Of a stretch of 64,000 nt of DNA, positions 3,416-7,511 are shown piece after piece. Below the pieces are notes generated by a model. The model was not told the origin of the DNA, did no database searches, and saw only the letters and a list, made by a program, of their open reading frames with translations. Within the stretch, counting starts at the first letter, position 1. Each line of letters begins with the position of its first letter. The position numbers and the translations under genes are program-made. Source of the stretch: a virus (lineage: Duplodnaviria; Heunggongvirae; Uroviricota; Caudoviricetes). The stretch lies in the IMG/VR virus record IMGVR_UViG_3300042875_000419; one strand, 5' to 3'.

Positions 3416-4846
3416 TTACAGCACTTTGTAACGGTCATCCATGATGGTCTTAAGCATCACAGTTTCTGGTGTGAAGGTTTCTAGGTCACCAGCAAGGAGT
3501 GGCTTAACCACGGCTGGAGAGAAACCAGACACCAGTGCAGTACCAGACTTGTCAAACTTCACAGGCGCATTGCCATATGAAGCGTTCAAGTTCCAGAATA
3601 CAACCTTTGGAAGGATGTAGCCTGCGGCTTCGTACTTACGTGCAATCATTTCGATTGCAGAGTCATCATGCTTGACACATTGGTCAAATTGCATGTCAGA
3701 CAGAATCAACACCATTGAAGGCATATCTTCTTTCGCTACGTTACCTTTTACAGCAACGTCTAGGATTTTCGCAAAGGCCTTGTTCAGGTCAGTGTTCATA
3801 TCCCAGTTGGACTTAACCATTTGGTCAATCTTAGAGTTGATACCACCCTTTAGGTGCATCAATTCTGGCTTGCCAGAGAAGGTCAAGAATGTGTCCTTGA
3901 ACGCACCCTTGTTCTTGTCAGCAAGGTACAATCCCAGAGAGACTGCAACTTCCAAACAGGTCAACTTACCAGTCTTGCCTGCGGTGCAGGTCATAGAACC
4001 GGATACGTCAACCAGAGGCAGAATGTTTGCATCACCAACATAGTTAGGCAATGCGTTCCATTGTGCTTCAATCAAGTCCATTTCGGTCTTGTCGAACTTC
4101 ACACCATAGCTGTTGATACGACCCTTCAGCACATCATATGGGAATACCGCAGATGCGTTAACCTTAACTTCAACGGAACGATCCTTTGGATCCTTCATCA
4201 GTTCTGCAACGTAAGCCGCATAAGCTGGAGAGTTACGGTTGAAAGCCTTCTTGTAACGGGAAGCCGCCACAGAAGGAACATGTGAGAAGTTAATGGAATC
4301 CCAGTCCTTTGCACACATGTTTGTTTCAACAACTTTGGTCATTTCAACCAAAGACTTACGGTAGAACTTTGGTGACATTCCGAAGAATGTACGGATTTCT
4401 GCCGCAAGTGGACCTTGGCGAGGTGTCCACTTAGCCGCCAAACCATTCTTTTCACGGAGTGCGTTACCAAGAATAGTGTATGCGGCTTCTTTCAGTGCTT
4501 TGGTCTTGAAGACAAACAAATCATCCCAACGACCCAATTCTGGCACTTTAGCCAACAGAGCCTTAGCGGCTTCTGTATCAGTGTTTTCCAGATACACTAG
4601 GATATCACGGAACAATTGACGTTCACCAGCACCACCACGTGCATCACGTAGCCATGCGGCAACACGGAGAGCCAATTCACGGTTCTCCGCCAAGGCAGCC
4701 GCAAATGCAGGCTTAATATCTTTTCCACGGGAAGCACCCGCATTGTAAAACAAATCAACCACCGCATTGGCAGTTGACTTGCGAGCCTTCATACCGTTTT
4801 CGGTACGGGCTTCTTGGTTCTTAACAGCTTCGACAAATGTTGACAT
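3416..4846 (-). CDS. Ro60/TROVE-like helical-repeat plus vWA protein (DUF2828-like), 476 aa
   Basis: Motifs RDARGGAGER, GRWDDL, AAKWTPR; vWA MIDAS DVSGSM and LSDMQFD; AAGGAG before ATG at 4846 (the ORF-track start at 4891 lies in an ncRNA). Confidence 0.85.
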   Translation of the reverse strand: MSTFVEAVKNQEARTENGMKARKSTANAVVDLFYNAGASRGKDIKPAFAAALAENRELALRVAAWLRDARGGAGERQLFRDILVYLENTDTEAAKALLAKVPELGRWDDLFVFKTKALKEAAYTILGNALREKNGLAAKWTPRQGPLAAEIRTFFGMSPKFYRKSLVEMTKVVETNMCAKDWDSINFSHVPSVAASRYKKAFNRNSPAYAAYVAELMKDPKDRSVEVKVNASAVFPYDVLKGRINSYGVKFDKTEMDLIEAQWNALPNYVGDANILPLVDVSGSMTCTAGKTGKLTCLEVAVSLGLYLADKNKGAFKDTFLTFSGKPELMHLKGGINSKIDQMVKSNWDMNTDLNKAFAKILDVAVKGNVAKEDMPSMVLILSDMQFDQCVKHDDSAIEMIARKYEAAGYILPKVVFWNLNASYGNAPVKFDKSGTALVSGFSPAVVKPLLAGDLETFTPETVMLKTIMDDRYKVL

Positions 4847-4865: not shown

Positions 4866-4986
4866 AACAGGTTAAACTTTTTGCGGACCAACGTGCTACC
4901 ATTACACTAGACCCCTAAGGGAGTCCGGAATCGAACCGGTCTTTCAGTTTTCATTTGCATATTTTGTTTTGCGGAACTTAACCTAA
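4866..4986 (-). ncRNA. Y-RNA-like RNA E with permuted tRNA-mimic domain (YrlA-like)
   Basis: Terminal stem AGGUUAA/UUAACCU, GUUCCGCAA motif; inside, T-arm CCGG-UUCGAUU-CCGG, loop-closed acceptor stem, then D-arm GUGU-AAUGGUA-GCAC. Confidence 0.75.
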
Positions 4987-4993
4987 AAAAAAT

Positions 4994-5205
4994 AACAGGA
5001 TGGTCGTTCTGTAATTTTCTGTTTACTCTAACAGGAGTGCAATTGAACCACTCAAACCCCGATGGATTACCATCATCTTTCTGTCTTTCCAGAGTCAAAT
5101 TTAATTGAGGTTTATTCCCTAGTCTACGAAAATACACCTTGCGGTGGTCCCTCCATTGTAGACGGTTCTGTAGTAAGTTAATTTAAACTTGCTGAATCCA
5201 TCCTA
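4994..5205 (-). ncRNA. Y-RNA-like RNA A (large insert)
   Basis: Terminal stem AGGAUGG/CCAUCCU, AUUCAGCAA motif, several internal hairpins including CACC-GCAA-GGUG. Confidence 0.65.
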
Positions 5206-6201: not shown

Positions 6202-6687
6202 TTAAGCAACCATTTCTTGTTCCGCAAGAATCCGCTTTAAACGGTCTGCACAGAAAGAAGCGGCTGGTGCATCTGGTTTAACCATTGGTGTCATGTTACA
6301 TGTACCTTTGATATAACCAATTGCTTGTTGAACAACACAAGAAGAACCGTGTTCAACAGACTTGTTAAGGTCTAGGTGAACTTCAACGTGACGGTCTTCC
6401 AACACATCTTGCAATTCTTGAAACAGTTCGGATACTTTGTACACTTCTGTCATCAAACGCATTGCTGGCTTGGATTTCTTGTGGTCATAATCTAATTCAC
6501 GATCAACGTATCCGAAGATTTTACATCCGTGACAACCATCGATATGAACAACGACAGCCAAAGCGTAATCTGCATACCAAACGCCGTTAACACGCATACG
6601 TTCGGAGTCTGCACCAAGGTAAACACGGGTGTCTGGTCCTTGAGCCACAATAAAATCTTTTACTTTTTGGATATCGAAATTTTTCAT
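6202..6687 (-). CDS. RNase H-like YkuK/DUF458-family protein
   Basis: VYLGADS, A-V-V-H, RLMTEVYK, VEVHLDLN, KPDAPAASFCAD motifs; likely start MKNF at 6687. Confidence 0.75.
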   Translation of the reverse strand: MKNFDIQKVKDFIVAQGPDTRVYLGADSERMRVNGVWYADYALAVVVHIDGCHGCKIFGYVDRELDYDHKKSKPAMRLMTEVYKVSELFQELQDVLEDRHVEVHLDLNKSVEHGSSCVVQQAIGYIKGTCNMTPMVKPDAPAASFCADRLKRILAEQEMVA

Positions 6688-6702
6688 ATCATTACCTTTG
6701 TT

Positions 6703-6778
6703 TGGCACCCCGAGAAGGACTCGAACCTTCAGCCTTTGGTTTTGGAGACCACTGCTCTGCCAATTGAGCTACCGAGAT
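6703..6778 (-). tRNA. tRNA-Trp (CCA)
   Basis: Loop CTCCAAA, G73, CCA. Confidence 0.92.
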
Positions 6779-7140: not shown

Positions 7141-7215
7141 ATATAAAAACACACTAGACGAGGCGACCCGTTTCGAACCAGTTCCTGCTTATCTCTAATG
7201 TATTTTTATATGGTG
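7137..7215 (-). ncRNA. Long-stem spacer RNA L2
   Basis: 22-bp stem with G-U pairs on the minus strand joining the tRNA-Ala 3' CACCA to the next tRNA 5' GGUG; inner GGUUCGAAAC T-loop-like motif. Confidence 0.45.
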
Positions 7216-7285
7216 GAGGATAGGAGAATCGAACTCCTGCTTCATGCTTGCAAAGCACATGTGCTACCATTACCACTAATCCCCC
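7211..7285 (-). tRNA. tRNA-Ala (TGC)
   Basis: G3-U70, loop TTTGCAA, CCA. Confidence 0.95.
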
Positions 7286-7290
7286 ATAAA

Positions 7291-7357
7291 CAACAGAATA
7301 GTTTTTGCGTTTTCAATTACAAGTTGAATGCTTTTTATTTGCTGAACCTATTCTAAA
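7291..7357 (-). ncRNA. Y-RNA-like RNA B with anticodon-like hairpin (UGU)
   Basis: Stem AGAAUAG/CUAUUCU, GUUCAGCAA motif, inner UUCAA-CUUGUAA-UUGAA. Confidence 0.7.
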
Positions 7358-7359
7358 AC

Positions 7360-7435
7360 TGGCTCCGGTCTCAGGATTCGAACCTGACTTCAAGGATTAA
7401 CAGTCCTCCGCCCACACCTAGTTTGCTTCACCGGA
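7360..7435 (-). tRNA. tRNA-Asn (GTT)
   Basis: GAGGA-CTGTTAA-TCCTT arm, G73, CCA. Confidence 0.92.
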
Positions 7436-7442
7436 ATAAAAT

Positions 7443-7511
7443 AACAGGATGATTTTTGTCGCTAGACAACCATAAAGTTTAGCTAATTTTATTTGCTGTA
7501 CTCATCCTAAA
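7443..7511 (-). ncRNA. Y-RNA-like RNA C
   Basis: Stem AGGAUGA/UCAUCCU, GUACAGCAA motif, inner UUGUC-UAGC-GACAA. Confidence 0.65.

What the first reader, a model, noticed from the sequence alone, without database searches (positions are those of the whole stretch)
7291..7357. Y-like RNA B displays a tRNA-Thr(UGU) anticodon stem-loop
The insert is UUCAA-CUUGUAA-UUGAA, a 5-bp stem with a canonical 7-nt loop (C32 U33 UGU A37 A38), flanked by A-rich linkers. A complete tRNA-Thr(UGU) is encoded at 8055-8128. Inference: the RNA is a decoy or bait for anticodon nucleases or modification enzymes, tethered to the Ro-like protein.
Basis: partly seen in the sequence, partly recalled or inferred. Interest (0 to 1): 0.78.

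Follow-up and report, generated by a model that had tools for sequence, protein, structure and literature searches.

The report
Anticodon-loop mimic on phage handle RNA
A 65-base RNA gene inside this phage's tRNA cluster combines a conserved "handle", which travels with a Ro60-shaped protein gene, with a look-alike of the threonine-tRNA anticodon hairpin; it may be bait for host proteins that recognise tRNA anticodons, but that function is untested.

Summary
On the minus strand at 7356-7292 lies UU-AGAAUAG-GUUCAGCAA-(A-rich)-UUCAA-CUUGUAA-UUGAA-(A-rich)-CUAUUCU-GUU.

It is one of five units in the window with the same handle: a 7-bp closing helix, (U/A)C(A/C)GCAA, and a CUGUU end. A 476-aa DUF2828 protein is encoded 2.4 kb away on the same strand. 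Its model matches only Ro60 structures over its whole length.

Of 117 distinct homologues from 77 protein-anchored phage loci, 66 have an exactly 7-nt loop: C32 in 57, U33 in 64, A37 in 58 and A38 in 59 of the 66. All five stem pairs covary and 14 different triplets occur. No phage repeats a triplet.

The handle also lies beside DUF2828 genes in bacterial and archaeal contigs, always on the gene's strand.

It lacks the GNCGAA Ro-binding motif that Chen et al. (2014) found in YrlA-type Y RNAs, and it scores nothing against Rfam YrlA. It resembles Dictyostelium Class I RNAs instead.

The decoy role is inference. It fits the triplet repertoire (UGU, UUU and GUU are the PARIS AriB targets) and a host-like C32 loop where the phage's own tRNA-Thr has U32.

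I found no published description. This scan has reported the family, including its anticodon-arm cargo, on other genomes.

The parts
7292..7356 (-). Unit A, the finding: a 65-nt handle RNA with anticodon-arm cargo, lying between tRNA-Asn (7360-7435) and tRNA-Ala (7211-7285)
   Evidence: Sequence. Covariance model R1 scores it 69.4 bits, but it is a seed sequence. It matches related phages at 59-65 of 65 bases.
7348..7354 (-). Handle helix, 5' strand AGAAUAG
   Evidence: Pairs with 7295-7301. This helix is 100% paired and 6 of its 7 pairs covary across 117 distinct homologues.
7339..7347 (-). Single-stranded handle motif GUUCAGCAA
   Evidence: CAGCAA is invariant in the 33-sequence alignment A2. 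The same motif is shared with Rfam RF01414.
7312..7328 (-). Anticodon-arm mimic UUCAA-CUUGUAA-UUGAA (loop 7323-7317, UGU 7321-7319)
   Evidence: The loop is identical to that of E. coli tRNA-Thr(UGU) thrU. The phage's own tRNA-Thr(UGU) has UUUGUAA.
7295..7301 (-). Handle helix, 3' strand CUAUUCU, followed by the conserved GUU (7292-7294)
7443..7510 (-). Unit B: same handle (AGGAUGA/UCAUCCU, GUACAGCAA). Its cargo is a different conserved hairpin (GCUAAAC..GUCUAGC), not an anticodon-type loop.
   Evidence: R1 scores it 50.1 bits and it was not in the seed. The cargo is conserved in other phages.
8340..8398 (-). Unit C: same handle. Its cargo is UUUCA-CUGUCAA-UGAAA (8372-8356), a GUC (Asp-type) anticodon-arm mimic.
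   Evidence: R1 scores it 69.0 bits, but it is a seed sequence. Rfam RF01414 scores it 39.6 bits against a gathering score of 41.5.
4994..5204 (-). Unit D: about 210 nt with the same handle (AGGAUGG...CCAUCCU-GUU, AUUCAGCAA) and a large structured cargo
   Evidence: Sequence. The cargo was not analysed further here.
4866..4984 (-). Unit E: handle variant (AGGUUAA...UUAACCU, UUCCGCAA) carrying a T arm, a closed acceptor stem and a D arm. It lies directly upstream of the DUF2828 gene.
   Evidence: Sequence. Similar permuted tRNA-like units occur in related loci.
3416..4846 (-). DUF2828 + DUF7788 protein, 476 aa: a Ro60-shaped helical-repeat ring plus a vWA domain with the MIDAS motif DVSGSM
   Evidence: Pfam. 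PHROG 850 'RNA-binding protein'. AlphaFold model pLDDT 91.5. The top 12 PDB matches are all Ro60. The start codon was chosen from homologues.
8055..8128 (-). The phage's own tRNA-Thr(UGU). Its anticodon arm is CCUGU-UUUGUAA-UCAGG, with U32 and a U31-U39 mismatch.
   Evidence: ARAGORN.

Best explanation
Positions 7292-7356 (minus strand) encode a small non-coding RNA of a widespread, uncatalogued family.

Anatomy. Each member has a constant handle: it starts UAG or AAG, has a 6-8 bp closing helix, then a single-stranded (U/A)CAGCAA followed by an A/U-rich tract, and ends CUGU. Each member also carries a variable cargo. In this unit the cargo is a bare anticodon-arm look-alike: a 5-bp stem and the loop C32-U33-UGU-A37-A38. 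That loop is identical to the anticodon loop of E. coli tRNA-Thr(UGU).

Inferred biogenesis. The RNA is co-transcribed with the tRNA array. tRNA processing of the flanking tRNA-Asn (3' end) and tRNA-Ala (RNase P) would release it.

Inferred partner. The handle binds the Ro60-shaped DUF2828 protein encoded 2.4 kb away on the same strand.

Inferred function, least certain. The particle presents the anticodon arm to a protein that reads anticodon loops. The most likely client is a host tRNA-targeting immune nuclease, with the RNA acting as competitor, bait or sensor. A tRNA-modifying enzyme is a less likely client. Each phage carries a non-redundant panel of such arms.

Shown here: the anatomy, conservation and covariation, the variation in triplets, the Ro60-like fold, and the genetic linkage.
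Inferred: expression and processing, binding to the protein, and the client.
For: Anatomy and selection:
- The handle helix is 100% paired, with 6 of 7 pairs covarying. The anticodon-arm helix is 89.5% paired, with 5 of 5 pairs covarying. Slid controls give 35-47%.
- 66 of 117 distinct hits have exactly a 7-nt loop. Of those 66, C32 occurs in 57, U33 in 64, A37 in 58 and A38 in 59, with 14 different triplets.
- The enrichment over shuffled cargo is 10 of 49 against 0.17 of 49.
- Longer relatives carry the same hairpin between a D arm and a T arm, or in a permuted tRNA body.
- Unit A is as conserved as the tRNAs around it.

Partner:
- All 12 top PDB matches of the DUF2828 model are Ro60 (E 1e-7 to 7e-6, TM 0.37-0.65). 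Below them come vWA domains only.
- All 195 model hits in 77 loci chosen by protein homology lie on the gene's strand.
- All 27 hits in 80 bacterial and archaeal loci lie on the gene's strand. Most lie within 1 kb upstream of the gene, and two lie just downstream.
- 21 of 98 loci found by the RNA motif alone hold the gene within the fetched stretch.

Client:
- The commonest triplets are UGU, UUU and GUU. These are the tRNAs cut by PARIS AriB (PMC12409363). tRNA-Thr(UGU) is also the preferred target of P2 OLD (PMC12445682).
- 64 of the 66 loops have U36 or A36, against 61% of the phages' own tRNAs.
- No locus with two or more such units repeats a triplet (0 of 19).
- UGU-type mimics with the canonical frame read CUUGUAA, the E. 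coli thrU loop. The phages' own tRNA-Thr(UGU) reads UUUGUAA in 11 of 14 comparisons and in this window.
- A Ro60-like protein that lies directly upstream of the tRNA genes of the felixounavirus Bas63 (gp130) counters the Ppl defence (PMC11482910). In a related felixounavirus, ekra, I found the DUF2828 homologue in that same position.
Against:
- The AU-rich stem is thermodynamically marginal, and RNAfold does not predict it.
- The pair counts come from an alignment fitted to the model, and many sequences are close relatives.
- Binding to the DUF2828 protein is inferred from gene linkage only.
- Bas63 gp130 protects T7 when expressed alone, so at least that anti-defence activity needs no partner RNA (PMC11482910).
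- AriB needs contacts outside the anticodon loop: a T5 tRNA-Lys given the E. coli cleavage site was not cut (PMC12409363). P2 OLD needs a paired CNG motif in the stem, which this AU stem lacks (PMC12445682). A bare arm may therefore be a poor substrate for both.
- The host and its tRNAs are unknown.
- The bias towards U and A at position 36 may partly reflect the low G+C of the units.
Confidence: 0.55

Rival explanations
1. The RNA is a partner of the Ro60-like protein, but the anticodon-like hairpin is only a structural relic of descent from a tRNA. It would serve as a spacer or a protein-contact element, and the triplet would have no client of its own.
For: - The short units look like tRNA-like units that lost their D and T arms. 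GC/GC or UAC/GUA stubs flank the hairpin, as in the 97-nt forms.
- Y RNAs of the YrlA type are thought to derive from tRNAs (PMC4201824).
- The stems are weak and AU-rich.
Against: - A relic should drift. Instead C32, U33, A37 and A38 are each kept in 86-97% of the 7-nt loops, while the triplet and the stem sequence change.
- In the smallest units the anticodon arm is the only tRNA part retained.
- No phage repeats a triplet (0 of 19), and the repertoire is skewed to a few anticodons.
Confidence: 0.2
2. The arm is a substrate or sponge for tRNA-modifying enzymes or aminoacyl-tRNA synthetases that read the anticodon loop, rather than for immune nucleases. Candidates are the t6A37 or i6A37 machineries and Tgt. 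The RNA would either retune host translation or acquire modifications it needs for its own function.
For: - 64 of the 66 loops have U36-A37 or A36-A37, the classes that carry t6A37 or i6A37 (established tRNA biology).
- YrlA RNAs are modified by tRNA enzymes in vivo (PMC4201824).
Against: - I tested nothing directly.
- The same U36 and A36 classes are also the usual targets of anticodon nucleases, so the pattern does not discriminate between the two ideas.
Confidence: 0.12
3. The element is not a stable RNA at all. It would be a processing or punctuation signal, or a spacer, in the tRNA precursor, or a remnant of a mobile insertion.
For: - It lies between two tRNAs, 3 nt after a CCA end and 6 nt before the next tRNA.
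- There are no expression data.
Against: - The same handle lies beside DUF2828 genes in bacteria that have no tRNA array at that place.
- The motif is invariant and the helix covaries.
- Units move among arrays as independent modules.
- Dictyostelium Class I RNAs, which have the same architecture, are abundant stable RNAs (PMC7919456).
Confidence: 0.08

Closest known systems
Bacterial and phage Y RNAs of the YrlA type with Ro60/Rsr (Rfam RF02553; Chen et al. 2014, PMC4201824); Thermus phage phiLo Ro60 with Yrl1/Yrl2 (PMC12135203)
   Same: Both are modular small RNAs, with a terminal helix and protein-binding motif plus a tRNA-like module. Both are encoded next to a ring-shaped Ro60-fold protein with a vWA domain. 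Several RNAs can accompany one protein. Phage-encoded examples exist.
   Different: - The handle motif is (U/A)CAGCAA, not GNCGAA or CGAA.
- Unit A has no Rfam YrlA match, even at E up to 10.
- The protein is in Pfam DUF2828/DUF7788 and gave no Pfam TROVE hit. It is 12-17% identical to solved Ro60 structures.
- The cargo here is a bare anticodon arm, which the S. Typhimurium YrlA fold drawn by Chen et al. (D, T, V and acceptor-stem arms) does not include.
Dictyostelium Class I RNAs (Rfam RF01414; Kjellin et al. 2021, PMC7919456)
   Same: - About 60 nt long, with a short terminal helix whose sequence varies but whose pairing is kept.
- An adjacent motif (CCUUACAGCAA, against GGUUCAGCAA here).
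- An A/U-rich variable middle.
- A start of (A/U)AG and an end of CUGU.
- Unit C of the window scores 39.6 bits against a gathering score of 41.5.
   Different: - Class I RNAs are eukaryotic, transcribed from DUSE promoters, reported as unique to Dictyostelia, and bind the RRM protein Rnp1A.
- No anticodon-type cargo has been described for them.
- Unit A itself gave no RF01414 match.
- I could not test whether dictyostelids encode a DUF2828 protein.
Phage-encoded tRNA variants that escape tRNA-targeting defences (T5 tRNA-Lys, tRNA-Thr and tRNA-Asn against PARIS, PMC12409363; phage tRNA-Thr against P2 OLD, PMC12445682)
   Same: They are encoded in the same tRNA arrays. They concern the same anticodons (UGU, UUU, GUU). 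Both would act in the conflict over host tRNA cleavage.
   Different: Those are complete, chargeable tRNAs that replace the cut host tRNAs, and they differ from the host around the cleavage site. This RNA has no acceptor, D or T arm and cannot decode. It keeps the host-like loop.
Bas63 gp130, a Ro60-like anti-Ppl counter-defence protein of a felixounavirus (PhageMaP preprint, PMC11482910)
   Same: The protein has a Ro60-like fold and is encoded directly upstream of a tRNA array. I found a DUF2828 homologue in that position in the felixounavirus ekra, with handle units among its tRNAs.
   Different: - The preprint only guesses that some annotated tRNAs might be Y RNAs, and describes no handle RNA.
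- gp130 works without phage RNAs in T7.
- I did not compare Bas63 gp130 itself with the window protein.

Membership tests
CAGCAA-handle RNAs linked to DUF2828 (no published or Rfam family; defined here from 33 seed sequences, model R1) | Terminal helix of 6-8 bp joining the 5' and 3' ends, with covariation | tested here: met
   AGAAUAG pairs with CUAUUCU. The helix is 100% paired, and 6 of 7 pairs change on both sides across 117 distinct sequences.
CAGCAA-handle RNAs linked to DUF2828 (no published or Rfam family; defined here from 33 seed sequences, model R1) | Single-stranded (U/A)C(A/C)GCAA directly 3' of the 5' strand, a UAG start and a CUGU(U) end | tested here: met
   The sequence reads UUAG...GUUCAGCAA...CUGUU. 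These columns are invariant in alignment A2.
CAGCAA-handle RNAs linked to DUF2828 (no published or Rfam family; defined here from 33 seed sequences, model R1) | Encoded near, and on the same strand as, a DUF2828 (Ro60-fold) gene | tested here: met
   The gene lies at 3416-4846 on the minus strand, 2.4 kb away. All 195 hits in viral loci and all 27 hits in bacterial and archaeal loci share the gene's strand.
CAGCAA-handle RNAs linked to DUF2828 (no published or Rfam family; defined here from 33 seed sequences, model R1) | Expressed as a discrete stable RNA that binds the DUF2828 protein | not testable with these tools
The complex predictor does not accept RNA.
Y RNA / YrlA (Rfam RF02553) | Ro-binding motif GNCGAAN0-1G (bacteria) or GGUCCGA (vertebrates) in the terminal helix region (PMC4201824) | tested here: not met
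   The motif is absent from the 65-nt sequence.
Y RNA / YrlA (Rfam RF02553) | Covariance-model score at or above the gathering score (69 bits) | tested here: not met
   No RF02553 match at 7291-7357, even at E up to 10. No match above the gathering score in six related loci.
Y RNA / YrlA (Rfam RF02553) | tRNA-like module with a T arm, a D arm and a closed acceptor stem | tested here: not met
   Unit A has only an anticodon-type hairpin. Unit E (4866-4984) and relatives elsewhere do have these arms.
Y RNA / YrlA (Rfam RF02553) | Partner is a TROVE-domain Ro60 | tested here: inconclusive
   There was no Pfam TROVE hit, but the fold matches Ro60 over its whole length.
Dictyostelium Class I RNA (Rfam RF01414) | About 60 nt, a 6-bp terminal helix, the 11-nt motif with invariant U3, C6, C9, A10 and A11, a start of (A)AG and an end of CUGU (PMC7919456) | tested here: met
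   Unit A is 65 nt with a 7-bp helix, the motif GGUU-CAGCAA (one base shorter), a UAG start and a CUGU end.
Dictyostelium Class I RNA (Rfam RF01414) | Covariance-model score at or above the gathering score (41.5 bits) | tested here: not met
   Unit C scores 39.6 bits. Units A and B are not reported at E up to 10. No hits above the gathering score in six related loci.
Dictyostelium Class I RNA (Rfam RF01414) | Dictyostelid nuclear gene with an upstream DUSE promoter | tested here: not met
   This is a phage tRNA array with encoded CCA ends and T4-type replication genes.
tRNA (Rfam RF00005) | Cloverleaf with acceptor, D, anticodon and T arms | tested here: not met
   Neither ARAGORN nor Rfam finds a tRNA at 7291-7357. 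Only an anticodon-arm equivalent is present.
tRNA anticodon stem-loop (structural mimicry, not a family) | 5-bp stem and 7-nt loop with pyrimidine 32, U33, purine 37 and A38, kept in homologues while the triplet varies | tested here: met
   The loop CUUGUAA equals the loop of E. coli thrU.

The most novel reading that the evidence does not exclude
Phages, many bacteria and possibly dictyostelid amoebae share an undescribed Ro60-like particle: a DUF2828 ring plus RNAs with the Class I-type CAGCAA handle. In phages the variable cargo would be a programmable panel of anticodon arms that intercepts or senses host tRNA-targeting immune nucleases, such as PARIS AriB and OLD-family Toprim enzymes. 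This would be an RNA-based, swappable anti-defence decoy system. It would also give the orphan Dictyostelium Class I RNAs a protein partner and an evolutionary origin.
Probability: 0.2. Interest if true: 0.9.

Novelty: new variant of a known kind. Interest (0 to 1): 0.7.

Why it matters
tRNA cleavage is now recognised as a common bacterial anti-phage strategy. The known phage answers are replacement tRNAs and RNA repair.

A small RNA that shows only the anticodon arm, mounted on a handle tied to a Ro60-like protein, would be a third kind of answer. It would also be the first clear hint of what this very common phage protein does with RNA. The protein occurs in 701 phage records, including Felix O1-like, Listeria, Staphylococcus, Campylobacter, Vibrio and mycobacteriophages.

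The design makes simple predictions. Loop swaps should change which defence or which protein is affected.

The handle's likeness to Dictyostelium Class I RNAs offers a testable lead for a class of eukaryotic RNAs whose function has been open since 2004.

Tried and rejected
- A near-identity DNA search of the phage collection with 6 kb of the array found nothing, and the window's own assembly is not held. I used the nearest viral record (89% identity) and metagenomic viral contigs instead.
- Single-sequence folding gave no support for the hairpin. I relied on comparative evidence.
- Rfam at gathering thresholds finds only tRNAs in the window and in six related loci. I considered filing the RNA as YrlA or as Class I RNA and rejected both on score.
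- A sequence search of the protein against the PDB found nothing. The fold search was needed.
- The hypothesis that the hairpin is a duplicated copy of the phage's own tRNA-Thr arm is rejected. The stems are unrelated and position 32 differs.
- I looked for RNA-repair genes (ligase, kinase) near the array. Pfam and PHROGs found only an RNase H-like protein, a metallophosphoesterase and proteins of unknown function.
- The Avesson 2011 paper on Class I RNA-binding proteins is not held. I could not find a way to ask whether dictyostelids encode DUF2828.
- In the E. coli phage ekra, handle units exist, but the best one has a non-canonical loop, UGCGGAU. I therefore could not compare mimics with E. 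coli tRNAs there.

Full report
**What is there**

The window carries 29 tRNA genes, all on the minus strand, between 3136 and 12754. Nearby are T4-type replication genes, for example a gp44-like clamp loader. The finding lies between tRNA-Asn (7360-7435) and tRNA-Ala (7211-7285). Read on the minus strand, 7356-7292 is:

UU-AGAAUAG-GUUCAGCAA-AUAAAAAGCA-UUCAA-CUUGUAA-UUGAA-AACGCAAAAA-CUAUUCU-GUU

Neither ARAGORN nor Rfam calls a tRNA here.

**A family, not a single hairpin**

Two more short units have the same frame: 7443-7510 and 8340-8398. Two larger ones lie just upstream of the 3416-4846 gene: 4994-5204 and 4866-4984.

A pattern scan and a protein-anchored scan of viral contigs gave about 180 related loci. 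A simple script found about 340 distinct units with the same handle. Their cargo falls into four classes:
- A single hairpin, 52-66 nt in all.
- A D arm, an anticodon arm and a T arm, with the handle in place of the acceptor stem (about 97 nt).
- A circularly permuted tRNA-like body in the order anticodon arm, T arm, closed acceptor, D arm (about 115 nt).
- Larger structured RNAs next to the protein gene.

The hairpin of the short units therefore sits where a true anticodon arm sits in the longer ones.

I built a covariance model from 33 short units. In the window it finds units A and C, which are seeds, and unit B, which is not, at 50 bits.

In 77 loci chosen only because they encode a relative of the neighbouring protein, it finds 195 matches, every one on that gene's strand. 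On the 117 distinct sequences of the best 150:
- The handle helix is 100% paired, with 6 of 7 pairs covarying.
- The hairpin helix is 89.5% paired, with 5 of 5 pairs covarying.
- Controls with slid partners give 35-47% pairing.

The alignment is fitted to the model and the sequences are related, so these figures lean towards the structure.

Sixty-six of the 117 have a loop of exactly 7 nt. Most of the 6-nt cases are one-base alignment slips. Of the 66, position 32 is C in 57, position 33 is U in 64, position 37 is A in 58 and position 38 is A in 59. Fourteen different triplets occur.

With a strict definition and no model, 10 of 49 non-redundant cargo regions carry such a hairpin, against 0.17 after shuffling. 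So loop length, U33 and purine 37 are conserved while the triplet varies. The stated refutation condition is not met.

A single such hairpin would not be significant on its own, because about 24 are expected by chance in this window. RNAfold does not predict this weak AU stem.

Unit A is 59-65 of 65 bases identical in six related phages, like the tRNAs, although its neighbours differ between phages.

**The protein**

The 476-aa product of 3416-4846 matches Pfam DUF2828 and DUF7788 but not TROVE. It also matches PHROG 850, 'RNA-binding protein', and has a vWA MIDAS motif. The start codon was fixed from homologues.

A 57-sequence alignment gave a confident model, with pLDDT 91.5 and pTM 0.89. 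Its 12 best PDB matches are all Ro60, from Xenopus, human, Deinococcus and Thermus phage phiLo (E 1e-7 to 7e-6, TM up to 0.65, 12-17% identity). Below them only vWA domains match. 'Ro-like' is therefore justified at the level of fold.

The family is large. It has over 6000 representatives at 50% clustering and occurs in 701 phage records.

**Linkage**

In 80 bacterial and archaeal genome contigs that encode the protein, the model finds 27 units. All are on the gene's strand. Most lie within 1 kb upstream of the gene, and two lie just downstream. A looser script shows many more, including tRNA-like ones beside the gene in Treponema saccharophilum DSM 2985 and in a Carnobacterium.

Conversely, 21 of 98 loci found by the RNA motif alone hold the gene within the fetched stretch. 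This is good genetic evidence for a partnership, but it is not evidence of binding.

**What it is not**

The YrlA-type Y RNAs surveyed by Chen et al. (2014) share GNCGAAN0-1G (PMC4201824), and the phiLo Yrl RNAs carry CGAA (PMC12135203). Unit A has neither motif and gives no Rfam YrlA match.

The only Rfam family that the handle approaches is the Dictyostelium Class I RNA. Unit C scores 39.6 bits against a gathering score of 41.5, and it aligns through the helix, CUUACAGCAAUUAAA, the A-rich tract and the CUG end. Kjellin et al. describe Class I RNAs as about 60 nt long, starting AAG and ending CUGU, with a 6-bp helix of variable sequence and the 11-nt motif, and as unique to Dictyostelia (PMC7919456). 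The bacterial units start AAG and end CUUGU.

The resemblance is close, but units A and B do not reach the model's threshold. I could not test whether dictyostelids encode DUF2828.

**Is it a decoy?**

This part is inference, but several observations bear on it.

- The mimic is not a copy of the phage's own tRNA. The stems are unrelated. The UGU-type mimics with the canonical frame read CUUGUAA. The phage tRNA-Thr(UGU) reads UUUGUAA in this window and in 11 of 14 distinct comparisons. CUUGUAA is exactly the loop of E. coli thrU.
- UGU, UUU and GUU are the three commonest triplets among distinct sequences, and UGU and UUU are present in the most loci. [quoted passage not shown] P2 OLD prefers tRNA-Thr(UGU) (PMC12445682).
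- 64 of the 66 loops end in U36 or A36, against 61% of the phages' tRNAs.
- Of 19 loci with two or more such units, none repeats a triplet. This window carries UGU and GUC.
- A Ro60-like protein lies directly upstream of the tRNA genes of the felixounavirus Bas63 and counters the Ppl defence (PMC11482910). In the felixounavirus ekra I found a DUF2828 homologue in that position, with handle units among the tRNAs.

Against the decoy idea:
- That protein works alone in T7.
- AriB and OLD both need features that a bare AU-rich arm lacks.
- The host is unknown.
- Modification enzymes would select the same anticodon classes.

**Verdict**

The reading 'anticodon stem-loop displayed on a Ro-associated RNA' is supported by comparison. 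The label 'Y RNA' fits the architecture but not the family. 'Decoy' remains a reasonable and testable hypothesis.

My literature searches found no description of this handle RNA or of anticodon-arm cargo. Earlier reports of this scan describe the same family, its Class I likeness and its anticodon-arm cargo on other genomes. I reached the main points with my own tests before reading them, except for the pointer to read the PhageMaP preprint closely.

Noticed in passing
window 7443-7510 (-): Unit B has the same handle, but its cargo is a different hairpin, GCUAAAC-UUUAUGGUU-GUCUAGC-GAC. This cargo is conserved in many related phages, with variants such as CUAAACUUUUUGGUUGUCUAG, and it does not look like an anticodon arm. 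What it mimics is unknown.
   Followed up: partly
window 8055-8128 (-): The phage's own tRNA-Thr(UGU) has U32 and a U31-U39 mismatch that shortens the anticodon stem. Phage tRNA-Thr genes resistant to P2 OLD are reported to have shortened anticodon stems (PMC12445682). Its stem still carries CUG/CAG on both strands.
   Followed up: partly
window 8247-8332 (-): Rfam gives a weak tRNA-Sec-type match here (33.6 bits, below gathering), where ARAGORN calls no tRNA. It may be an unconventional long-arm tRNA, and it lies directly 3' of unit C.
   Followed up: no
window 8134-8207 (-): ARAGORN calls a tRNA-Met(CAU) with the anticodon at position 30. It scores only 18.7 bits on the Rfam tRNA model, so it is an atypical tRNA or tRNA-like RNA.
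   Followed up: no
L256 3739-3927 (Treponema saccharophilum DSM 2985) and L254 3769-3956 (Carnobacterium): In cultured-isolate or near-complete bacterial genomes, a permuted tRNA-like handle RNA and a short handle RNA lie directly upstream of the DUF2828 gene. They start AAAG/AAGA and end CUUGU, closer to the Dictyostelium Class I termini than the phage units are.
   Followed up: partly
L258 7755-7822, 7922-7977, 8401-8472 (Escherichia phage ekra, MN850644.1): This Felix O1-like coliphage has unannotated handle units (AGACC...UGCAGCAA...GGUCUG) in the gaps of its tRNA array, just downstream of its DUF2828 gene (ekra_107).
   Followed up: partly
window 6202-6708 (-): A 168-aa protein of Pfam family RNaseH_like (PF04308) is encoded inside the tRNA array between tRNA-Gly and tRNA-Trp. 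Its function is unknown, and it might take part in RNA processing.
   Followed up: no
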